A stretch of 64,000 nucleotides of DNA. Source: a phage. Every line of letters starts with the position of its first letter. Positions within the stretch are counted from its first letter, which is position 1. A program made the translations under genes and the position numbers. The stretch is from sequence record PZ338878.1, one strand, 5' to 3'. The notes under the pieces are model-generated. The model saw only the letters and a program-made list of their open reading frames with translations. It was not told where the DNA came from and did not search any database. This document shows, in pieces, positions 2,460 through 41,388 of this stretch.

Positions 2460-5234
2460 TTAGTTTACCAGTTTATTTATGTCTGGTAAAAGATTTATTT
2501 CACCTAAAAAATCACCTTCACCTTCCTCTAGCCAACTCTCATATGCTTGTGCATGATTATAGTTACCATCAAAAGAATCTGCAACAAATTTTTCTACAGT
2601 TTTTCGAGATGTGCCAGCGCCAAATACACCAAGTTTAATACCATTGATCGGTAAAGTAGGGCTTGTTGGTACTTTCTCTGTTGCAACACGGTTGATATCT
2701 ATAATCTCTTGTACAGTTGTATTCCATTGTAAGCATTTAACACAACGGGTATGCGCTACATACAGTAAGTTTCGCTCTGCCTCTTCTAGTCCTACCCATT
2801 CACCAGTCTTTTTATCATAGTTGGAAGGAAAATCATTAGCAACAATAACCTGATCCCACTCCAAACCTTTAGACTTATGTGCTGTAGTCAGTGTGACTTT
2901 TGCTGTAGGAGAATTTCTATGCGTTCTAAGTGTATGTGCTATAGTGTTTGCCTTGCCAGAAACTACGATGTTTAACAAGCGTTTAGCATCTGGATCAGCC
3001 TCTGCACACTCAACAAATTCATTCCAGTCTGCGTAAGGTAATACAGTTTCATGTTTTACTTTCTCAATATCCCCTCTCCGAAGAGCATTAACACTATCCA
3101 CCATAGAGATAAAATCCCTGGTATCTACGTTAATAATAATTTCTTCCCCATCTGCAATACGATCCATTGCCTCCATAAGCAAGGTTAAATTCTTGCGAAA
3201 GATGATAGTGTAAGGTTTTGTATAGTCTACAACATCTGATTTGTAGCTACCTACTACAGTATCAAAGCCTTTACCAACCAAAGGATGACGCAAAGGTTCT
3301 TTATCACTTAAAATCATATTCGCAATGTTTGCCACTTTGGGGCCAAAACGGAAGCAAGCAGTTAATGGAAGCTCTGCCCCATACTTAGCTGTTTCAATCA
3401 TCATATTAGAGCTACCTCTAAATTGATAAATGCAGTTGTGGCTAAGAATTTCATTGCCAAAAAAGTTAGCAGTATCTTCTACTTCAATATCATAATAGAT
3501 ACCCTCACTATCTACAATGTCCACAATCTCTTCTGCCGTTACAGTATCACCATCTTTTACTAACACAGACATGCCTTTAAACAAACCCGCTGCCGGAATT
3601 AAATTATATTTGGGAGTGTTCACAGAGGACATGCATTCTTTTAAAGATGCAAACGGAACTATTTCAAGGATCTTTTGTGCAAAACTCAATGCTTCACGAT
3701 AAGAATTGAAATATTTACGTACACGGTAACGACCTTCCAATTTAGCAACACTTACGCTTACACCTGCTTCAATGAGTGAGGCATAGATTGGCATTTCACT
3801 TTCTGTCCACTCAAAGCTAACTTGTGTTCCTTTACAACCTTGTGCTCGCAAAGTCACTGTTAACATTTTTCTTGCATCTACTGCACAATTGATGCTGTGC
3901 CAATGTGGATAAGCAAAATGATAGTCTTTATCCTCTAAAAGTTTAAAACCATTTTGTCCGAATTGTTCAAAGATATTGTTGATCCTTTCTTGATTAATAC
4001 CGCGTGAACTTGCTTCAAATACACAAGTAGGAATGCCATATTGTAAACTGTATGCCATTTCTTTTTCCATAGCAGCTTCACGGTTTTCAACAATATCCAA
4101 CACCCACAACTTCTGTGCTTTTTCAGAACGTGTACGTTGCCCCAGTTTAGAAAAACCTTCTTTATCATCGAATTTGTTAGTGATCCCTACTCGGAAACCT
4201 AAATCTTTTCTCCACATTAGGTATACCACCATCTGATCATCTTTCAGAACATAAGGTGAAGCCCAAATACGATGGTTATGTGTCATATCTAAAGTCTTAC
4301 CTTTAGCAGTAATAATATTCCTACCTTTTGTACGTGTAGATAAAGTCTTATTTGTTACTTTTCTAAATGTAACTTTACCGTTAGAATAAGACTCTACCTT
4401 ATCACCGATTTGCAGGTCTTTCATTGTAACCTGACCATTTTCGGTATTAAGTACCGTGTTTTCTGACACACATTGGAATTCATCACCAACTACCACAATT
4501 TGTTTGGCAGATTTAGCATTCCGCAGAATAGACAAGAATGCAGGGTTAACATCCTGGAATTCATCCCCAAAAATAATGTCATAACCAAGATCAGCACCAG
4601 ACAATTCAAACAATTTTACATAGGTGTCATGCGTCATCAAAGTATCTGTGTTAGGATCAATGCGCTCTCGCCACAATTGTTTTGCATACTTAACTACTTC
4701 TGTAATTAGTTTGTGTTCGTTAATACCTTTTCTTTTAATATCTGCAAGATGTACACCAGGAAAATGTTTACGGCTGATAAAAGGATCATCCGAAAATTCA
4801 AACTTACCTACGGTTTGCTTGATCATTAAACCAATCATAGCACGAGTTAAAAGTGTTTTCCCTCGTTTATCAATAAGATTATTAATCTTAAATTTCTTTG
4901 CTATCTCACTACCTGTACCTGCAACGTTAACATACTGTCCTTCTGGTCGTGACAGTTTTGCACGTAAACGATGATCCAGGAATTGATAGCAAATGGAATG
5001 CAATGTACGGCATTCTACATTTGGTGGCATCTTACGCCGTGCTTCTTCTGCCATGCTTTTATTGAAAGCTAAGTAAAGAATGCGATCTTCTGTACTGTTA
5101 GCCAGCAAATAAAGTGTTGACGTTTTTCCTGATCCAGATTTAGCTTGGATAGTTAAAAACCGATGATCTGGAAAAGCCTCCTTAATAGCTGTTTGCTCTT
5201 CTGTTGGAGTAAAACTCAACTCTTTCTTAGCCAT
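2460..5234 (-). CDS. SF1 UvrD/PcrA-like DNA helicase interrupted by an intein
   Basis: Walker A AKSGSGKT; DEFQD; helicase motif III split as VVGDEFQ / CIYQFRGSS; start taken at MAKKELSF (RBS GAGAGG) rather than track start. Confidence 0.8.
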   Translation of the reverse strand: MAKKELSFTPTEEQTAIKEAFPDHRFLTIQAKSGSGKTSTLYLLANSTEDRILYLAFNKSMAEEARRKMPPNVECRTLHSICYQFLDHRLRAKLSRPEGQYVNVAGTGSEIAKKFKINNLIDKRGKTLLTRAMIGLMIKQTVGKFEFSDDPFISRKHFPGVHLADIKRKGINEHKLITEVVKYAKQLWRERIDPNTDTLMTHDTYVKLFELSGADLGYDIIFGDEFQDVNPAFLSILRNAKSAKQIVVVGDEFQCVSENTVLNTENGQVTMKDLQIGDKVESYSNGKVTFRKVTNKTLSTRTKGRNIITAKGKTLDMTHNHRIWASPYVLKDDQMVVYLMWRKDLGFRVGITNKFDDKEGFSKLGQRTRSEKAQKLWVLDIVENREAAMEKEMAYSLQYGIPTCVFEASSRGINQERINNIFEQFGQNGFKLLEDKDYHFAYPHWHSINCAVDARKMLTVTLRAQGCKGTQVSFEWTESEMPIYASLIEAGVSVSVAKLEGRYRVRKYFNSYREALSFAQKILEIVPFASLKECMSSVNTPKYNLIPAAGLFKGMSVLVKDGDTVTAEEIVDIVDSEGIYYDIEVEDTANFFGNEILSHNCIYQFRGSSNMMIETAKYGAELPLTACFRFGPKVANIANMILSDKEPLRHPLVGKGFDTVVGSYKSDVVDYTKPYTIIFRKNLTLLMEAMDRIADGEEIIINVDTRDFISMVDSVNALRRGDIEKVKHETVLPYADWNEFVECAEADPDAKRLLNIVVSGKANTIAHTLRTHRNSPTAKVTLTTAHKSKGLEWDQVIVANDFPSNYDKKTGEWVGLEEAERNLLYVAHTRCVKCLQWNTTVQEIIDINRVATEKVPTSPTLPINGIKLGVFGAGTSRKTVEKFVADSFDGNYNHAQAYESWLEEGEGDFLGEINLLPDINKLVN
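3435..4472 (-). mobile_element. intein (346 aa) inserted in helicase motif III
   Basis: begins Cys (CVSENTVL), block-B-like THNH, ends SHN followed by Cys (CIYQFRG); flanking exteins reconstitute VGDEFQ-IYQFRG. Confidence 0.75.
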
Positions 5235-5235
5235 T

Positions 5236-5712
5236 TCAACCTCTCTTAATTTGTTTAACAAGCATAGGAACAAAATCTCGTTTTAAAATTTGTTCAATAA
5301 TATGATCAGGTAGCTGTTGGAAATTATAATTAAATGCTACTGTCTCACCTTTAGGTGTTTCTACCCGCACATATAGCATGTTACGAAGTTTATCCACTTG
5401 TGCTGTATATTCTAAACCACGTAATTGATGCATTGCAAACATCAAATCATCAGTTTCAGTTTGGAATCTATCCCTTGTTTGCATCAAGGATAAGGCAAAA
5501 GGTAGATTTTCCCTAAGAGCCACCTTCTTAGGCACTAATGAAGGGAAATACTCCCCAATAACTTCCTGTGTAAGCTGAATACACTCTTTTTCAAGCTGGT
5601 TTTGTTCCTTGAGTTCACAAACACTTTTTTGTAAAGTGTTAACCTCTTTTTGCAAAGCTGCTAGTTGAGTATTTAACTTTCTTTTTTGATTACGACCAAA
5701 ACGTTTAGACAT
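5236..5712 (-). CDS. hypothetical protein (158 aa)
   Basis: ORF in operon. Confidence 0.5.
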   Translation of the reverse strand: MSKRFGRNQKRKLNTQLAALQKEVNTLQKSVCELKEQNQLEKECIQLTQEVIGEYFPSLVPKKVALRENLPFALSLMQTRDRFQTETDDLMFAMHQLRGLEYTAQVDKLRNMLYVRVETPKGETVAFNYNFQQLPDHIIEQILKRDFVPMLVKQIKRG

Positions 5713-11333: not shown

Positions 11334-11361
11334 TTGACATACTGTTTTATTGTGCTAATCT
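11334..11361 (+). promoter_or_regulatory. candidate sigma70-type promoter in divergent intergenic region
   Basis: TTGACA, 16-nt spacer, extended -10 TGcTAATCT. Confidence 0.4.
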
Positions 11362-11393
11362 TAATGCATACACAAATGAGAGGAGATAAACGA

Positions 11394-11945
11394 ATGCAAA
11401 ACACCGATCTGACTTGGGTAGAAGCCAAAGAAGCAATGTTAAAAGGCAAACGTGTTAAACATAAATACTTTTGCGAAGGGGAATGGTTTGAAATGCGTAA
11501 CCGATCCCTTGTAGACGAAAAAGGAAATAACATGGAACAATGGTTCAAAAATGAAATTTGGCAGGGAACAGGTTGGTCTATAGTTGAAGATCAGCCTAGC
11601 TCAAGCGCACTGTTTAGCCCTATTATGTATCGCGTCATCGGTGCTTTAGTTGTTGATCACGGAATTGCAGTGGAAAAAGAATGCTGGGAAGAGGTATCTT
11701 TTTTCAACCTGGCTTCTTATGCAAAAAGCCATATGCACTTGTTTGAAGAAGGTGATGAATTTGTTCTTCGTATGCGATATGGCAAAGAATTCAGATTACC
11801 ACTTGATAATGATGTAGACACTGTTGTAAAATGGTTAGCAGAGCATTATGCTTACGATGCAATTTGTGGTCGCAGCTTCGGCAACGAACGCTGGGACATG
11901 ATTTGTGAAAAATATGATTTTGAGCCGGAATACGGAGTTTTATAA
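11394..11945 (+). CDS. hypothetical protein (183 aa)
   Basis: start at ATG 11394 with AGGAG RBS. Confidence 0.5.
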   Translation: MQNTDLTWVEAKEAMLKGKRVKHKYFCEGEWFEMRNRSLVDEKGNNMEQWFKNEIWQGTGWSIVEDQPSSSALFSPIMYRVIGALVVDHGIAVEKECWEEVSFFNLASYAKSHMHLFEEGDEFVLRMRYGKEFRLPLDNDVDTVVKWLAEHYAYDAICGRSFGNERWDMICEKYDFEPEYGVL

Positions 11946-12853: not shown

Positions 12854-13981
12854 ATGAAATACACGATTTATGGTGATATTGTAAGTGTAAATAAAGATAT
12901 GGGCGTGGAATCTAACTACCTTCCACCTGGATTCTATACTGTTAGTCGTGATCCCCTTGGCAATTACTTTTTAAGCCGTGGTAATCTAACAGGTGTACCG
13001 GATGTTCTGTATGGTGAAACAGAAAAACGAGCAAATCACGTTATTCGTACATTCCATCGCCGTAGTGCACAAGGTAAAAACACAGGCTTGCTTCTGACAG
13101 GAACTAAGGGCAGTGGTAAAACTATGTTAGCCAAACTCATTAGTCGTGACCTTGTAGAAGAAGGTATTCCAACTATTATGGTTACTCAAGCCTACAGCGA
13201 TGCTAATTTCATTGAACTTATTAGCAAGATCACCGACAAAGCAGTGATTATTTTTGACGAGTTTGATAAAGTGTATGAGAAGAAACAAGATCAAGAAGCA
13301 CTTCTCACTTTGTTAGATGGTACTGGCAGTGGTAATAAACTGTTTATTCTGACTAAAAACAGTGGTTTTATCTCTGAATTCTTTTTAAATCGTCCTAGTC
13401 GTGTGTTTTATAATTTTAATTATGATAAAATCTCACTAGAAACTATGATTGACTACTTAGATAAAAACCTGGATAACAAAGCACACTTTGATAATTTCCA
13501 AAGACTTTGGGATGTAAGTTTAGAGTTGTCCTTTGATGTGATCCAAGGTATAGTAGAAGAACTTAATTTCTACCCTGATTTATCCTTTAAAGAATGCATC
13601 TCTATGATGGGCGTTTCTTTAGGTGGTGGTAATAAATGGGATATCAGCAGCGTTGTTATTAATGGAAAACTTCAGAAAGTTAGCTGGGTATCTAGTTGGC
13701 ATAACTTCACACCTGCAATCTTTTTAGGTGGTTCGTGCACACTAGACGTGTACTTGTCATCTCCAAGTGATGCAGACTCTAAAGAAGCCCTTGCTAATAG
13801 CTCTTACGTGGTTTTTGATGATGAAGGAGATGCTCGAATTCCATTGAATGCGACAAAAATGAAAGCAGATCTTATTACAGGCGGTAAAATCGTTGTGTTT
13901 AGTGACGATCCAGAAGATTCTTTCCGTATTGTTCTGGAACCAACTATCACCAATGGTGCAACTTTGGCAAGTGTGTTTTAA
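12854..13981 (+). CDS. P-loop (AAA-type) ATPase
   Basis: Walker A GTKGSGKT, Walker B VIIFDEFDK. Confidence 0.7.
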   Translation: MKYTIYGDIVSVNKDMGVESNYLPPGFYTVSRDPLGNYFLSRGNLTGVPDVLYGETEKRANHVIRTFHRRSAQGKNTGLLLTGTKGSGKTMLAKLISRDLVEEGIPTIMVTQAYSDANFIELISKITDKAVIIFDEFDKVYEKKQDQEALLTLLDGTGSGNKLFILTKNSGFISEFFLNRPSRVFYNFNYDKISLETMIDYLDKNLDNKAHFDNFQRLWDVSLELSFDVIQGIVEELNFYPDLSFKECISMMGVSLGGGNKWDISSVVINGKLQKVSWVSSWHNFTPAIFLGGSCTLDVYLSSPSDADSKEALANSSYVVFDDEGDARIPLNATKMKADLITGGKIVVFSDDPEDSFRIVLEPTITNGATLASVF

Positions 13982-13997
13982 GTAAGCTAGCAAATAA

Positions 13998-14020
13998 AAA
14001 CCCGCTCCGGCGGGTTTTCT
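13998..14020 (+). terminator. rho-independent terminator or attenuator
   Basis: AAACCCGC-TCCG-GCGGGTTTTCTT. Confidence 0.6.
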
Positions 14021-14055
14021 TGTATTGATGCCAGATTTAATAAGAGGAGTAATAG

Positions 14056-15453
14056 ATGACAGCACCAAAATCATGGGAACAATATAAAGAAGAATTAACA
14101 CCCCTTGCTAAAAATCACAATATTCAAATCCTGGGTTATGTTGGGGAATGGAAAGGGAGCAAGACTAAACTTAAACTATCTTGCCCTGATCATGGAGAGT
14201 GGGAAAGTACCGTAATCACTAACTTTAAAACTAGAGGCGGTAAATGTTGCCCCGATTGCAATGGTCATAGAAAAGTAACAGAAGAAAAGGAATGTATTTC
14301 CCTTGTTGATGTTGCTAAAGAAAGAGGGTTTACTTTTATAGGTCTTGCCGAGGAGTGGCGAGGTGTACGAACAAAAATTCGCATAATTTGCCCTAAACAT
14401 GGAGAGTGGAACACCACAAATATTATTAGTTTTAGGAATGGACATGGTTGTCCGACATGTGCAAGTAATAAGCCGTTAACATGGGAAACAGAATTACCGA
14501 TCTTGGAAGAGATAGCACAGAAGAAGGGGTATCAAGTGTTAGGGTACGTTGGAGAATGGAAAAGAAATAAAACAAAACTTGATTTGTTGTGTCATTGTGG
14601 TTATAAATGGGATACTACAAGTATTAACAGTTTTAAACGTGGTAGTGGTTGTCCTTTATGTGGGTATAAGAATACAGGTAAGTCACAAACAATATCCGAC
14701 GATCAACATATTGCAGATTTCTTTTCTACTGGTGTCTTCCCTGAAGGCACTATCTTCACTAACACAGGAGCACGGGGGAAAGGATGTGGGCATATTATCT
14801 GGATGGTTGAATGTCCTGTTTGCTCTCATGATGAATATGTTCAAGCAGGTGTTTGCAATGGTAAATTTTACTCTAAAGGATATAACCTTAAACGAGGACA
14901 CATGCCGTGTCGTTGTGGAAACTATCATTATACAGAAGACCAGATCACCTACAAAGTGAGAAAGGAAGTAGAGAGTAAAGGGTATATTTGGGTAGGATGG
15001 ATCAGTAAACCTAGTGCAAAAGGCAAGTTTAAATATTGGTGCAATAAACACGGGGAACAAATTGGAAATGCTGATAGTTTGATACATAGGGGAGCTGGGT
15101 GTCCACAGTGTGCTGGTCATAGTCAACAGCAATTATATATTAATATTGTTAAAGATAATGATATTATAGTTGCTCTTAAGTTTGGTATAGCTAAAGATAG
15201 CGATAGACGATTAAACCGTCAAAATAACCATAATATGTTTTTTATGGAGCGTATTTGTTTATATGATTTTAGCACAGTGAAACAATGTAAGGCTGCTGAA
15301 AGAGCTATAAAGAAAAAATTAAAAACTGGTATTTTAACGGAAAGAGAGTTGAAAGACGGTTATACAGAAACAGTAAGTGTTTCTGATTTGGAAAATCTTC
15401 AAAAAATTATTACACAATATGGTGGCAAGTTAGTATACAGTAAGGAGGTGTAA
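14056..15453 (+). CDS. multi-repeat zinc-ribbon protein with C-terminal T5orf172-like (GIY-YIG-related) domain
   Basis: tandem GEWxGxxTK...CPxHGEW...GCPxC units; C-terminal LKFGIAKDSDRRLNRQ resembles T5orf172 motif. Confidence 0.6.
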   Translation: MTAPKSWEQYKEELTPLAKNHNIQILGYVGEWKGSKTKLKLSCPDHGEWESTVITNFKTRGGKCCPDCNGHRKVTEEKECISLVDVAKERGFTFIGLAEEWRGVRTKIRIICPKHGEWNTTNIISFRNGHGCPTCASNKPLTWETELPILEEIAQKKGYQVLGYVGEWKRNKTKLDLLCHCGYKWDTTSINSFKRGSGCPLCGYKNTGKSQTISDDQHIADFFSTGVFPEGTIFTNTGARGKGCGHIIWMVECPVCSHDEYVQAGVCNGKFYSKGYNLKRGHMPCRCGNYHYTEDQITYKVRKEVESKGYIWVGWISKPSAKGKFKYWCNKHGEQIGNADSLIHRGAGCPQCAGHSQQQLYINIVKDNDIIVALKFGIAKDSDRRLNRQNNHNMFFMERICLYDFSTVKQCKAAERAIKKKLKTGILTERELKDGYTETVSVSDLENLQKIITQYGGKLVYSKEV

Positions 15454-16005
15454 ATGCGGATTACTGATAAGTATGTGTTCTTCTTCTCGGCAAAAGATGA
15501 ATTTAGCAACTGGTATCTATCATCTTTTATTGAACCTTTAGCTCCCAAGTATAATAATTCTATTACAAGTTCTGTTGAATTTACTTGTGTGGAACAATAT
15601 ATGATGTGGAGAAAAGCATGTTTGTTTTATGATTACAACATTGCATCTTCTATTTTAACCGGAGATCTAAGATATACAGGAGAAAAAGAACAGGCATATT
15701 ATAAGCGACTAGGTAGATTAGTTAAAGATTACGATGAAGCTACTTGGACTTCTTTACGGGAGAAGATTGTCAAGCGTGGTTTGTATCTTAAATACACACA
15801 AAATGAAGATCTCAAAAATAAACTTATCGCTTACGCAGATAAGGAGTTCGTAGAGGCAAGCCCTTATGATTCTATTTATGGTATCAAAATGGGGATGTGG
15901 GATCGTGATGTTGAAAACAAGGATCGTTGGAAAGGACAAAATCTTTTAGGAAAATGGCATACAGACCTTGCTGTTTATCTAAAAACACAATCTGATATTT
16001 CCTGA
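15454..16005 (+). CDS. NADAR-family (YbiA-like) protein
   Basis: FFFSAKDEFSNWY and EQYMMWRKA motifs; ATG directly follows upstream stop. Confidence 0.6.
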   Translation: MRITDKYVFFFSAKDEFSNWYLSSFIEPLAPKYNNSITSSVEFTCVEQYMMWRKACLFYDYNIASSILTGDLRYTGEKEQAYYKRLGRLVKDYDEATWTSLREKIVKRGLYLKYTQNEDLKNKLIAYADKEFVEASPYDSIYGIKMGMWDRDVENKDRWKGQNLLGKWHTDLAVYLKTQSDIS

Positions 16006-16224
16006 TATTTTGAAAATTTTTATTTTTATAAAAAGGGGTGTGGGTTTCATGTACGGAAATCCACCCTCTGAATAATATATCCAGAGTAAATATTATTCTG
16101 TACTCTGTTAATAAAGTATTTAATTTGTTTGTTGGACTATGGTATCTGATCTTTAAAAGACATACTATCTCTTAACTACTACTTATAACAGAACAGTAAA
16201 ATCATTTTTATAAAAAGGACAAAA

Positions 16225-16425
16225 TTATTTAAAGTTTTTACAGATTTTTGGCTACAAATTTTGAAAATGAAAAGTTCAAGTTTGGTCAAAATTATTTAAA
16301 GTTTTTGTATGTATTTCTATCCAGATTTTGAAAATGAAAACTTCAATTTTTTAAAAATTCCCCAGTTTATTTAAAGTTTTTTTGCCTTTTTCCGTAGAAA
16401 AATCAAAAATGAAAAGTTCAATTTC
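16225..16425. repeat. three tandem ~70-bp direct repeats
   Basis: TTATTTAAAGTTTTT at 16225, 16291, 16367; TTTTGAAAATGAAAAGTTCAA at 16258, 16325, 16401. Confidence 0.7.
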
Positions 16426-16444
16426 GTGTTTTTATAGGTGTGTT

Positions 16445-16557
16445 AATGAGAATCATTTTCGTTTGTAAATGAGAATCATTATCATTTAACTATGTAAGTG
16501 ATAATCATTCTCAGTAAGAGAATGAGAATCATTAGCAAATGAGAATTTTTCTCATTT
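16445..16557. promoter_or_regulatory. array of Fur-box-like hexamer repeats
   Basis: AATGAGAATCATTATCATT, GTGATAATCATTCTC, AATGAGAATCATT close to Fur consensus GATAATGATAATCATTATC. Confidence 0.45.
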
Positions 16558-16818
16558 ACAGAATAACGCGCAGGGGCGGTGTTTGTCTCGCGCTCCCGTG
16601 TCCCCTCGCCATACAATAAGAATAGCATAACCAACAACAAAAGCAAGCGATTATTTTTATCTTTACATTTCTTTACAAATTTATTTTAGACGAGCTACCG
16701 GCGATCAACCTTCCAACCAGGGCCGCCTGGTATGTTAGCCCCGCCTTTACGCCGTGGGGGTGGCGTTTCCTCTTCTGTATGTAAAACAGTATAAGCCCGA
16801 TCCCTGGGCTTGTCAATA

Positions 16819-17085
16819 TTATTTTTTGTTTTCTTGCCAGGATAGGACACCTAACCAAAAATACATGTCGCCCCGCGCCCCTGGCGGGATCTTGCTTTCC
16901 CCGCCGCCACTGCAAGCCCATAAATAACCGTCAGCGAACGGATCAAAGTGATCTATCTCTTCCACCTTATGATCGCCCAGGTTGAGAACGGTTTCAACCT
17001 TTAAGCCCGTTGCGCTTGCTACCTGGTGCACCGTGCCGCCTTGCCAGCCCAATGATTGCATGAGATGTAAAGGAGTATTTGTCAT
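16819..17085 (-). CDS. hypothetical protein (88 aa) in G+C-richer segment
   Basis: ORF; composition differs from surroundings. Confidence 0.35.
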   Translation of the reverse strand: MTNTPLHLMQSLGWQGGTVHQVASATGLKVETVLNLGDHKVEEIDHFDPFADGYLWACSGGGESKIPPGARGDMYFWLGVLSWQENKK

Positions 17086-17196
17086 GGTATCGCCCTTTCT
17101 TTGATGTGCGCCCTGGTTGGCGCGGTAGAAAGATAATAGCCGTTTCTTTTATAGATAGCAAGCAAAAAAGAAATGAAAAAAAGATTAAAAAAACGG

Positions 17197-28640: not shown

Positions 28641-28691
28641 ATTTGAGGGGGACGGTCGGCAGAAATCGGGGGGCGCTGAAAATCGCGTTAA

Positions 28692-28758
28692 NNNNNNNNN
28701 NNNNNNNNNNNNNNNNNNNNNNNNNNNNNNNNNNNNNNNNNNNNNNNNNNNNNNNNNN
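28692..28758. other. assembly gap (67 N)
   Basis: run of N in sequence. Confidence 1.
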
Positions 28759-40575: not shown

Positions 40576-41388
40576 TTATTTAGTCAAATGATCTTCTATC
40601 ATTTTTATGAAAGCAGGATTGCTAAAAGCATCTGCGGCTTTTTCTCGATAAACAAAGACTCCTCTATCTTCGTAAAGAAGAGTTTCTTCGTAATTAATTC
40701 CTGGGTTAACAACAATCATTTTTGTACCCATATTAAGTGCAGGGAATAATTCCCAATTAAAATTGATAACTTGGTTTGAACATCCTACTACAACAACCAA
40801 ATCTTGCATGGTCAAAGTATCAAACAAGTGAGCCATATCTGCATACAAAGGTGCAGCCTCACCAAAAAATACAACATTAGGCTTCACCCAGTTATAATCA
40901 TCTATGTTTATGCTGTTGTAACCAATATCTACCAGTGTTTTGTAATCTCCAGGATGCATACGGTAAACTACTTCAGGAAGATATCCGTGCACGTGAATAA
41001 CCGAATCTCTGTCTACACCTGCTCGCTCTAGTAGATCATCAACGTTTGTTGTCAAGTTTACTACTTGGTTAGGATATTCCTTAAACCACTTTGCTATTTG
41101 AATATGTGCAGCATTAGGTTGTACATCTTTAAGCTCAACACGTCTTTTGTTATAAAATTCGTGTGTTTTGGCATACAAATCCATACCGTTTTCGTCTACA
41201 CCACCAACCACTGGAAGATCTGGAGATGTTCTCACACGATAACCTGCTTGGAAAGCTCCAATATTGCAGACCTCTTCTAAATCATATTCTTCCCATAAAG
41301 CACGACCACTATCTGTGTCTGTTCGGAATGTTCGAATCCCACTGTCTGCACTTAAACCAGCTCCACTAACAAAAATTACTCTTCGCAT
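40576..41388 (-). CDS. Sir2-family (sirtuin/CobB-like) protein
   Basis: GAGLSADSGIRTFR, TTNVDDL, HG, VVFFGE, VVGCS motifs. Confidence 0.8.
   Translation of the reverse strand: MRRVIFVSGAGLSADSGIRTFRTDTDSGRALWEEYDLEEVCNIGAFQAGYRVRTSPDLPVVGGVDENGMDLYAKTHEFYNKRRVELKDVQPNAAHIQIAKWFKEYPNQVVNLTTNVDDLLERAGVDRDSVIHVHGYLPEVVYRMHPGDYKTLVDIGYNSINIDDYNWVKPNVVFFGEAAPLYADMAHLFDTLTMQDLVVVVGCSNQVINFNWELFPALNMGTKMIVVNPGINYEETLLYEDRGVFVYREKAADAFSNPAFIKMIEDHLTK

What the first reader, a model, noticed from the sequence alone, without database searches (positions are those of the whole stretch)
12854..16005. Co-directional set: P-loop ATPase, repeat-rich zinc-ribbon T5orf172-like protein and NADAR enzyme
A 375-aa ATPase (GTKGSGKT, DEFDK) is followed by a terminator/attenuator hairpin, then a 465-aa protein made of about five tandem zinc-ribbon units with a C-terminal T5orf172/GIY-YIG-like motif, whose stop abuts the ATG of a NADAR-family gene. 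NADAR enzymes are established as hydrolases that reverse ADP-ribosylation of DNA bases (antitoxin partners of DarT). The combination suggests a phage counter-defence or DNA-damage-reversal module, possibly aimed at host ADP-ribosylating toxins. The pairing with a repeat zinc-ribbon nuclease-like protein is not one I know as described.
Basis: partly seen in the sequence, partly recalled or inferred. Interest (0 to 1): 0.75.

Follow-up and report, generated by a model that had tools for sequence, protein, structure and literature searches.

The report
Known anti-DarT enzyme beside endonuclease gene
The three genes are real, but they are a lineage-specific neighbourhood in a well-sampled E. coli phage group and not a new three-part system: the NADAR enzyme's near-identical counterpart is already published as an anti-DarTG1 counter-defence factor, and its neighbour belongs to a described homing-endonuclease family.

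Summary
The window is a Justusliebigvirus-type E. coli myovirus (97.9% identical to phage alia). The NADAR gene is 98.4% identical to that of phage Bas60.

The "zinc-ribbon" protein is five CapR domains plus a T5orf172/GIY-YIG nuclease domain, a published homing-endonuclease architecture (PMC10448857). It is present, single-copy, at this locus in all 56 related records, with 3, 4 or 5 CapR units. Its DNA-binding array is a recombining cassette with about 5–8× the synonymous divergence of its flanks.

The ATPase is a classic-clade AAA+ protein, not a protease. It is under extreme purifying selection and is separated from the other two genes by a conserved terminator.

Outside the subfamily Stephanstirmvirinae, homologues of the three genes never neighbour each other in the loci sampled. 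I find no support for a three-gene module. Interest is low.

The parts
12854..13981 (+). AAA+ ATPase, 375 aa (orthologue of phi92 gp221). It has an N-terminal beta domain (about residues 1-45), a classic-clade AAA+ core (about 55-255) and a C-terminal beta-rich domain (about 260-365).
13997..14018 (+). Intrinsic-terminator-like hairpin between the ATPase gene and the nuclease gene
   Evidence: The stem has 9 pairs, a 4-nt loop and a T-rich tail. The stem is conserved in 6 Justusliebigvirus genomes and in Phapecoctavirus tuntematon, with loop TCCG or TTCG.
14056..15453 (+). Gene for a 465-aa protein made of a CapR zinc-finger array plus a T5orf172 (GIY-YIG superfamily) nuclease domain; homing-endonuclease family
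   Evidence: It matches PF21817 CapR in 5 stretches (E=7.4e-48), PF05265, PF10544 at 21.4 bits against a cut-off of 20, and phrog_681 'endonuclease' at E=2e-92. tblastn finds homology to ICP1 'putative homing endonuclease' genes.
14065..14673 (+). CapR units 1-3: three head-to-tail 67-aa repeats (14065-14271, 14272-14472, 14473-14673)
   Evidence: An HMM built from the units recovers them at residues 4-72, 73-139 and 140-206 with scores of 119-127 bits. These are the units that are gained or lost among relatives.
14758..15123 (+). CapR unit 4 (divergent CxxC...CxC type, about 14758-14928; boundaries approximate) and unit 5 (14929-15123)
   Evidence: Unit 5 is found by the unit HMM at residues 292-356. 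Unit 4 is inferred from the cysteine pattern (C253/C256...C285/C287) and from Pfam's count of five stretches.
15124..15450 (+). T5orf172 / GIY-YIG-fold nuclease domain (residues 357-465)
15454..16005 (+). NADAR-family ADP-ribosylglycohydrolase, 183 aa; orthologue of NADAR^Bas60 (bas60_0111) and phi92 gp223
   Evidence: It matches PF08719 at 126.8 bits against a cut-off of 35.1 and PDB 8BAU at E=4e-12. E47, K54, K84, R88 and E134 correspond to E43, K50, K75, R79 and E125 of the P. nicotianae NADAR. It is 98.4% identical to the Bas60 protein.
16034..16069 (+). Stable hairpin just after the NADAR stop codon; a possible 3' end of the nuclease-NADAR transcript
   Evidence: The fold of 16000-16100 has a z-score of -3.1, and 0 of 200 shuffles fold as well. 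There is no clear T-tract, so its role is inferred.

Best explanation
These are three neighbouring but functionally independent genes in the early region of a Justusliebigvirus-type phage.

1. NADAR (15454-16005). It is an orphan antitoxin-like enzyme that removes ADP-ribose from guanine bases which the host DarT1 toxin places on phage DNA, so replication can proceed in DarTG1-carrying hosts. This has been shown experimentally for the 98.4%-identical Bas60 protein. It is inferred here from orthology and intact active-site residues.

2. The upstream 465-aa protein. It belongs to the T5orf172 homing-endonuclease family. A 'beads-on-a-string' array of CapR zinc-finger units reads a DNA sequence and a C-terminal GIY-YIG-fold domain cuts it. 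The fold and conserved catalytic residues are shown here; cleavage is inferred. In this phage group the gene is a permanent single-copy resident between the ATPase and NADAR genes. Its DNA-binding array is swapped between lineages as a recombination cassette with 3, 4 or 5 units, while its nuclease domain and the flanking genes stay clonal. Its position next to NADAR, with abutting stop and start codons, reflects where the element sits and not a shared biochemical pathway.

3. The ATPase. It is a classic-clade AAA+ protein-remodelling type ATPase with all catalytic motifs and phage-specific N- and C-terminal domains. It is under extreme purifying selection, is closed off by a conserved terminator, and has an unknown substrate. 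It is not a protease.
For: - Identity of the phage and of the trio.
- NADAR: Pfam and PDB matches and five conserved ADP-ribose-binding or catalytic residues. It is 97.8-98.9% identical across the genus. tblastn finds only one NADAR place per listed phage record, so bas60_0111 is the NADAR^Bas60 that was tested in PMC11257639.
- Nuclease: CapR x5 plus T5orf172, a confident GIY-YIG-fold model, invariant catalytic-type residues, and a published architecture.
- Cassette behaviour: the array is 99.8% identical to alia where the flanks are 96.2-98.4%, and 86.0% identical to Bas60 where the flanks are 96.7-98.6%. Array dS is 0.65 against 0.08-0.14 in the flanks, and dN/dS of 0.25-0.34 shows the protein is still constrained. 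There are three length classes in 56 records.
- Independence: the terminator is conserved. NADAR loci in Seunavirus, Mydovirus, Kayvirus, Pecentumvirus and Pamexvirus have no ATPase or CapR gene within 6 kb. In EfV12-phi1 the ATPase and NADAR are about 43 kb apart. ATPase loci in Moazamivirus and Caeruleovirus, and three distant CapR/T5orf172 loci, lack the other two genes.
- ATPase: with dN/dS of 0.004.
Against: - The order ATPase, nuclease, NADAR is kept in both genera of Stephanstirmvirinae despite 55-64% protein identity. The nuclease and NADAR genes are translationally juxtaposed in Justusliebigvirus. Some functional coupling therefore cannot be excluded.
- The nuclease gene fails two classic hallmarks of an active homing element: no empty site in 56 records and no extra copies.
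- The NADAR activity data are for ectopic expression of the Bas60 protein. No deletion in the native phage was reported.
- No promoter was found between the terminator and the nuclease gene, so the two downstream genes may depend on read-through from the ATPase operon.
- The dS of the repeat array may be inflated by alignment uncertainty.
Confidence: 0.75

Rival explanations
1. One reading: the ATPase, the zinc-finger nuclease and NADAR act together as one counter-defence or DNA-damage-reversal module. For example, the nuclease or ATPase would process ADP-ribosylated DNA that NADAR then cleans.
For: Synteny is conserved in two genera. All three genes are co-directional. The stop and start codons of the nuclease and NADAR genes abut, with a Shine-Dalgarno inside the nuclease gene. 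All three plausibly act on DNA or nucleoprotein.
Against: A conserved intrinsic terminator separates the ATPase from the other two genes. None of the three families keeps either partner in any other lineage sampled. In Phapecoctavirus two extra small genes separate the nuclease from NADAR. NADAR^Bas60 alone, expressed from a plasmid, suffices to neutralise DarT1 and rescue other phages. The evolutionary regimes differ by two orders of magnitude in dN/dS.
Confidence: 0.07
2. The middle gene is no longer a selfish homing element but a domesticated one. It could be a sequence-specific nuclease used against competing phages or satellites (like ICP1 Odn), or a CapR-like DNA-binding regulator, with its DNA-binding cassette tracking a changing target.
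For: It is fixed at one locus in 56 of 56 records and in the sister genus. It is single-copy and under purifying selection (dN/dS 0.25-0.34). Cassette swapping resembles the Odn-type arms race described for phages of this same group. CapR itself is a domesticated repressor.
Against: The arrays of the window, Inny and Muut alleles have no nucleotide homologue in 5,426 complete E. coli genomes. They also show no protein similarity to a putative satellite listed by Barth et al.. So this locus is not their Odn-like RepA_N gene, and no target is in sight. The conserved catalytic residues argue against a pure repressor.
Confidence: 0.3
3. The NADAR protein's real substrate is a small molecule and not ADP-ribosylated DNA: a riboflavin-pathway intermediate as for E. 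coli YbiA, or a soluble ADP-ribose-derived immune signal.
For: It passes the NCBIfam TIGR02464 'riboflavin biosynthesis intermediates N-glycosidase' cut-off (110 bits against 73.7). It has the YbiA-type glutamate (E134) at the family-distinguishing position, not the Asp of DarG1 or the His of T4 AdfN. Iyer et al. 2022 argued that phage NADARs mainly target soluble ADP-ribose derivatives.
Against: NADAR^Bas60 neutralised DarT1 toxicity and restored DarTG1-sensitive phages by several logs, but not a DarTG2-blocked phage. YbiA-family enzymes also hydrolyse guanine-ADP-ribose in vitro.
Confidence: 0.1

Closest known systems
NADAR^Bas60 (Escherichia phage PaulScherrer bas60_0111), Johannesman, Carlson & LeRoux 2024, PMC11257639
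   Same: It is the orthologous gene: 98.4% protein identity, the same locus and the same neighbours. The published activity is neutralisation of DarT1 and rescue of DarTG1-sensitive phages, with no effect on DarTG2.
   Different: Only 3 of 183 residues differ. The assignment of bas60_0111 as the tested protein is my inference from it being the only NADAR homologue per genome. The paper calls these phages Vequintavirinae, whereas GenBank now files them under Stephanstirmvirinae.
AdfN (T4 gp30.3) and DarG1 antitoxins (BC4488-type NADARs)
   Same: They share the NADAR fold family and the same reaction, removal of ADP-ribose from guanine in DNA. AdfN has the same counter-defence role against DarTG1.
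   Different: The family-distinguishing catalytic position is Glu here (E134), His in AdfN-type phage NADARs and Asp in DarG1. No DarT gene is adjacent. AdfN is specific to T-even DNA, whereas NADAR^Bas60 is not specific to its own phage's DNA.
T5orf172 homing endonucleases with repeated CapR/DUF723 zinc-finger domains (ICP1 gp174, gp165 and others; Barth, Dunham & Seed 2023, PMC10448857; Netter et al. 2021, PMC8096241)
   Same: It has the same architecture: an N-terminal array of CapR-type Zn fingers plus a C-terminal T5orf172 domain. Unit number varies by in-frame repeat recombination, and DNA-binding modules swap while the nuclease domain is conserved.
   Different: Here the gene is single-copy and occupies the same site in every genome sampled, unlike the multi-copy, sporadic ICP1 genes. 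Cleavage and homing are untested.
[quoted passage not shown]
   Same: It has the same nuclease domain family, occurs in the same phage group and shows the same theme of swapping DNA-binding domains.
   Different: The DNA-binding part here is a CapR array, not RepA_N. It has no homologue in E. coli chromosomes or in a listed satellite. It is therefore a different gene from the one they describe.
Classic-clade AAA+ ATPases (BCS1, Trip13/Pch2, NSF-D2, NVL/Rix7, FtsH ATPase module)
   Same: It has the AAA+ core fold with Walker A and B, sensor-1 Asn and an SRH-like NRPxR arginine pair.
   Different: Sequence identity is only 13-20%. The N-terminal and C-terminal beta domains are phage-specific and unmatched. 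There is no peptidase domain or HExxH motif, so the GenBank labels 'FtsH-like protease' and 'Zn metalloprotease' are not supported.

Membership tests
NADAR superfamily (PF08719) | Profile match above the curated threshold | tested here: met
   126.8 bits against a cut-off of 35.1, covering residues 13-168. It also matches phrog_1017 at E=5.8e-50 and PDB 8BAU at E=4.2e-12.
NADAR superfamily (PF08719) | ADP-ribose-binding and catalytic residues (E43, K50, K75, R79, E125 of the P. nicotianae NADAR) | tested here: met
   E47, K54, K84, R88 and E134 align with them.
NADAR superfamily (PF08719) | Hydrolysis of guanine-ADP-ribose in DNA and neutralisation of DarT1 | not testable with these tools
   This was shown for the 98.4%-identical Bas60 protein by ectopic expression (PMC11257639). 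It was not done for this allele or by deletion in the native phage.
AdfN clade (T4 gp30.3-like phage NADARs) | Histidine at the family-distinguishing position in the last strand | tested here: not met
   The residue is Glu (E134). Johannesman et al. also place NADAR^Bas60 outside the AdfN cluster.
DarG1 antitoxin (DarT1-associated NADAR) | Adjacent DarT1 toxin gene, and Asp at the distinguishing position | tested here: not met
   The neighbours are the CapR/T5orf172 gene and a non-coding gap. The residue is Glu. The gene is therefore an orphan, antitoxin-like gene.
YbiA-type N-glycosidase (NCBIfam TIGR02464) | Profile match above the curated cut-off | tested here: met
   110 bits against 73.7. 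This is a sequence-family call only. The physiological substrate indicated by experiment on the orthologue is ADP-ribosylated DNA.
T5orf172 homing endonuclease with a CapR array | CapR-type zinc-finger DNA-binding domain(s) | tested here: met
   PF21817 matches in 5 stretches at E=7.4e-48 and PF05265 at E=1.2e-6. The units were delimited.
T5orf172 homing endonuclease with a CapR array | T5orf172 / GIY-YIG-fold nuclease domain with conserved catalytic-type residues | tested here: met
   [not shown]
T5orf172 homing endonuclease with a CapR array | Sporadic presence or absence at a conserved site (empty target sites in relatives) | tested here: not met
   All 56 Justusliebigvirus-type records carry the gene between the ATPase and NADAR genes. 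Phapecoctavirus carries it too.
T5orf172 homing endonuclease with a CapR array | Evidence of horizontal movement independent of the flanks | tested here: met
   The CapR array is 99.8% identical to alia but 86% to Bas60, while the flanks are 96-98.6% identical to both. Array dS is 0.65 against 0.08-0.14 in the flanks. This applies to the DNA-binding cassette, not to the whole gene.
T5orf172 homing endonuclease with a CapR array | Site-specific DNA cleavage and biased inheritance in crosses | not testable with these tools
   This needs biochemistry and co-infection crosses.
Odn-like anti-satellite nuclease | DNA-binding domain homologous to a satellite replication initiator (RepA_N) | tested here: not met
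   blastn finds no match in 5,426 E. coli genomes for the window, Inny or Muut alleles. tblastn against the FORC 064 satellite gives no hit better than E=1.
AAA+ ATPase, classic clade (PF00004) | Walker A, Walker B, sensor 1 and arginine finger; AAA+ fold | tested here: met
   [not shown]
FtsH-like protease / Zn metalloprotease (the GenBank label on orthologues) | Peptidase M41 domain with an HExxH zinc site | tested here: not met
   [not shown]

The most novel reading that the evidence does not exclude
The CapR/T5orf172 gene may be an allele-specific nuclease that fights related co-infecting phages at this very locus (marker exclusion). Each DNA-binding cassette would recognise loci carrying rival cassettes, which would explain why deep allelic lineages (dS about 0.65) persist inside otherwise clonal flanks. 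Because its stop codon abuts the NADAR start, cutting and repair would also drag the anti-DarTG1 gene between phages. That would make it a gene drive that spreads a counter-defence gene.
Probability: 0.12. Interest if true: 0.55.

Novelty: already known. Interest (0 to 1): 0.2.

Why it matters
The finding matters mainly for annotation.
- The NADAR genes of more than 50 phi92-like phages can be labelled as anti-DarTG1 factors, not 'GTP cyclohydrolase II' or 'hypothetical protein'.
- The 'FtsH-like protease' label on the ATPase should be dropped.
- The middle gene should be labelled a CapR/T5orf172 homing-endonuclease-family nuclease.

The one modestly new observation is that this nuclease gene is fixed at one site while its DNA-binding array is exchanged as a cassette with 3, 4 or 5 units. 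This gives a well-sampled E. coli system in which to test how T5orf172 nucleases change specificity, and whether they move neighbouring counter-defence genes.

Tried and rejected
- **Paralogues in the window.** tblastn found no paralogue of any of the three genes, even at E<=10.
- **Extra copies in relatives.** tblastn had reported 2-3 'places per record' for the nuclease in some relatives. I fetched the whole PD06 genome, and these were only repeat-offset self-alignments at the same locus.
- **Is this Barth et al.'s Odn-like anti-satellite gene?** The arrays of the window, Inny and Muut alleles gave no blastn hit in E. coli genomes. They gave no tblastn hit to a listed satellite, NZ_CP022664 3774069-3799382. 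The idea is rejected. A first attempt with accession NZ_CP028714 failed because that record is not in the collection.
- **RNA genes.** There are no tRNAs and no Rfam families in the window.
- **Defence-system libraries.** The ATPase has only sub-threshold P-loop hits, and the NADAR hits a candidate defence component, PDC-M42C. Neither changes the reading.
- **Promoter for the nuclease-NADAR pair.** None was found between the terminator and the nuclease gene.
- **Unused tools.** I did not run the third homologue search, the representative-library search, the third fold search or the metagenome and genome scans. The answers were already clear.
Full report
**Observation.** GTKGSGKT starts at residue 83 and DEFDK at residue 135 of the first protein. 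Between the first two genes lies the hairpin AAAACCCGC-TCCG-GCGGGTTTT (13997-14018) followed by a T-rich tail, which the terminator scan lists. The TAA of the second gene abuts the ATG of the third, and an AAGGAGG lies 5 nt upstream inside the second gene. Pfam gives AAA (PF00004, 38.9 bits against a cut-off of 21.2) for the first protein. For the second it gives five CapR stretches (PF21817, E=7.4e-48) plus T5orf172 (PF10544, 21.4 bits against 20). For the third it gives NADAR (PF08719, 126.8 bits against 35.1). PHROGs agrees: phrog_2376 'ATPase', phrog_681 'endonuclease' and phrog_1017.

**What the sequence is.** The region is 97.9% identical to Escherichia phage alia and about 95% identical to some 50 other Justusliebigvirus-type records, including phi92 and the BASEL phages Bas60-62 (Stephanstirmvirinae). 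In these records the genes are annotated as 'ATPase' or 'FtsH-like protease', 'endonuclease' or 'hypothetical protein', and 'putative YbiA-like N-glycosidase', 'GTP cyclohydrolase II' or 'hypothetical protein'. They correspond to phi92 gp221-gp223.

**NADAR.**
- The protein matches the solved P. nicotianae NADAR (8BAU, E=4e-12).
- The residues that Schuller et al. 2023 (PMC11543638) identified as binding ADP-ribose or needed for catalysis (E43, K50, K75, R79, E125) align with E47, K54, K84, R88 and E134 here.
- It is 98.4% identical to the Bas60 protein.
- Johannesman, Carlson and LeRoux (PMC11257639) reported that Bas60, Bas61 and Bas62 encode a NADAR that is distinct from T4 AdfN. Expressed ectopically, NADAR^Bas60 raised replication of three DarTG1-sensitive phages by several logs and neutralised DarT1 without phage. 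It did not rescue a DarTG2-blocked phage.
- tblastn finds one NADAR place per listed phage record, so bas60_0111 is that protein. This is my inference.
- Two caveats apply. The published tests were ectopic, not deletions in the native phage. The protein also passes the NCBIfam YbiA-type N-glycosidase cut-off and carries the YbiA-type Glu at the family-distinguishing position, so a small-molecule substrate remains a minor rival.

**The middle gene: family and fold.**
- CapR was defined from a phage-satellite repressor that derives from T5orf172 homing endonucleases (PMC8096241).
- Barth, Dunham and Seed (PMC10448857) showed that 87% of 229 T5orf172 homing-endonuclease genes carry CapR, DUF723 or DUF4379-type zinc fingers, often several per protein. 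They also showed that unit number changes by in-frame recombination and that DNA-binding and nuclease modules are swapped.
- The protein here fits that description. Units 1-3 are exact 67-aa tandem repeats (residues 4-72, 73-139, 140-206), unit 4 is a divergent CxxC...CxC type, and unit 5 spans residues 292-356.
- The Pfam T5orf172 hit is marginal, so I modelled residues 285-465 with 54 homologues (pLDDT 93.6).
- G377, R385 and E438 are invariant, and Y361, N363, K375 and E415 nearly invariant, in homologues down to 22% identity. An active nuclease is therefore likely. This is inferred, not shown.

**The middle gene: evolutionary behaviour.**
- In seven genomes of the genus the ATPase protein is 99.7-100% identical and NADAR is 97.8-98.9% identical. 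The middle protein is only 63-84% identical (99% to alia) and is 329-467 aa long.
- A survey of 56 records shows the gene is always present between the ATPase and NADAR genes. Six records have about 5 units, 35 have about 4, 14 have about 3, one is cut by the record end, and none has an empty site.
- It is single-copy in PD06, the one related genome scanned in full.
- By Nei-Gojobori estimates, dN/dS is 0.004 for the ATPase (dS 0.083) and 0.055 for NADAR (dS 0.115). It is 0.245 for the T5orf172 part (dS 0.144) and 0.335 for the CapR array, whose dS is 0.65.
- The high synonymous divergence shows that the array has a separate, deeper history than its flanks. Fast protein evolution alone would not produce it.
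- The array differs from alia at 2 of 1080 positions where the flanks are 96.2-98.4% identical. It is 86.0% identical to Bas60 where the flanks are 96.7-98.6% identical. The switch is sharp at the CapR/T5orf172 junction.
- The DNA-binding array is thus a recombining cassette inside a resident gene. This extends Barth et al.'s observations to a well-sampled coliphage group, but it is the same kind of phenomenon.

**Is the middle gene the Odn-like nuclease of Barth et al.?**
- Barth et al. also propose that T5orf172 proteins of Inny, Muut and Mt1B1_P17, which belong to the same phage group, are Odn-like anti-satellite nucleases. Their RepA_N domains are reported to match E. coli satellite RepA genes.
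- I tested whether that is this locus. The arrays of the window, Inny and Muut alleles have no blastn match in 5,426 complete E. coli genomes.
- No allele of this locus, Mt1B1_P17 included, shows protein similarity to one of their listed satellites.
- It is a different gene. Whether the gene here still homes or has been domesticated stays open, and I give domestication 0.3.

**The ATPase.**
- K89, D135/E136, N169, R180 and R183 are invariant in 63 homologues.
- The model (pLDDT 88.7) has a small N-terminal beta domain, an AAA+ core and a C-terminal beta-rich domain.
- There is no HExxH motif or peptidase hit, so the protease labels in GenBank are unsupported.
- Homologues occur in many large virulent phages, among small early-type genes.
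- Its substrate is unknown. The near-absence of amino-acid change suggests an important function, possibly an essential one.

**Is it a module?**
- For a module: the gene order is kept in both genera of the subfamily, and the nuclease and NADAR genes are juxtaposed for translational coupling.
- Against, point 1: the terminator stem between the ATPase and nuclease genes is conserved even where the ATPase is only 64% identical.
- Against, point 2: Phapecoctavirus has two extra genes between the nuclease and NADAR.
- Against, point 3: NADAR homologues in Seunavirus, Mydovirus, Kayvirus, Pecentumvirus and Pamexvirus have neither partner within 6 kb.
- Against, point 4: in Enterococcus phage EfV12-phi1 the ATPase and NADAR are about 43 kb apart.
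- Against, point 5: ATPase loci in two other lineages, and three distant CapR/T5orf172 loci, lack the other two genes.
- Against, point 6: the survey of viral NAD/ADP-ribose systems reports NADAR contexts with ADP-ribosyltransferases, NAD salvage genes and SLOG/Macro domains, not with T5orf172.
- Against, point 7: NADAR^Bas60 works alone.
- I conclude that the trio is lineage-specific synteny.

**Verdict.** NADAR is a counter-defence gene, but its function is already demonstrated. The nuclease architecture is already described. The three-gene module is not supported. Novelty: already known. Interest: 0.2. The most novel reading still open is that the cassette-swapping nuclease mediates allele-specific competition between co-infecting phages and carries the adjacent anti-DarT gene along (probability about 0.12).

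Noticed in passing
window 16442-16536; also 27435, 27493, 28424 and 28619: Fur-box-like motifs (AATGA[T/G]AAT[C/A]ATT cores) are strongly enriched. The 19-nt E. coli Fur consensus with up to 3 mismatches gives 6 matches at 5 sites against 0.06 expected, and 0 of 100 shuffles reach 6. Three sites cluster in the non-coding gap right after the NADAR gene, where they include a 24-nt inverted repeat. This may reflect iron- or Fur-responsive control, or Fur titration, in a lytic phage.
   Followed up: partly
window 16204-16424: There are three tandem AT-rich direct repeats of about 67-75 nt (71-72% identical to the reference copy). Phage alia annotates them only as 'repeat_region'. They could be iterons or a regulatory array, but their function is unknown.
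   Followed up: no
window 16560-17100: A GC-rich segment stands out from the AT-rich genome. It holds several terminator-like hairpins and a minus-strand 88-aa ORF (16819-17085, equivalent to phi92 gp224 and bas60_0113) with no hit in Pfam, NCBIfam or PADLOC. It looks like foreign or structured-RNA-rich DNA.
   Followed up: partly
window 28665-28758: A 67-nt masked run of N lies at 28692-28758. The 27 nt just before it (28665-28691) are 96% identical to an unannotated stretch of a putative E. coli phage satellite (NZ_CP022664, locus L027 14972-14998). That satellite also shares tail-fibre and tape-measure genes with phage PD06, so it may parasitise this phage group.
   Followed up: partly
window 40576-41388 (-): A SIR2-family protein is encoded here (PF02146, 80.7 bits). 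The related phage PD06 also annotates a nicotinamide phosphoribosyltransferase and a ribose-phosphate pyrophosphokinase elsewhere in its genome. The phage therefore carries several NAD-related genes besides NADAR.
   Followed up: partly
window 2460-5273 (-): A 937-aa UvrD-like helicase has an intein-like insertion at about residues 275-613. The Intein_splicing and Hint hits fall just below their Pfam cut-offs. This would be another selfish element in the same genome.
   Followed up: no
L015 31305-32465 (phage PD06; outside this window): PD06, a phage of the same genus, carries a second AAA+ paralogue (386 aa, 47% identical over residues 3-256 of the window ATPase) next to the anaerobic ribonucleotide reductase genes. 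Its C-terminal domain is different.
   Followed up: partly
window 11334-11945 (+): The first gene of the + strand block (203 aa) is only about 87.5% identical in DNA to both alia and Bas60, while the next two genes are more than 99% identical. This is another local mosaic spot.
   Followed up: no
[not shown]
   Followed up: partly
GenBank MG065639, MG065645, MG065656, MG065689, MG065650: Records labelled 'Campylobacter phage' (host C. jejuni) are about 91% identical to this E. coli phage region, or carry the Phapecoctavirus ATPase. Their host labels look doubtful.
   Followed up: no
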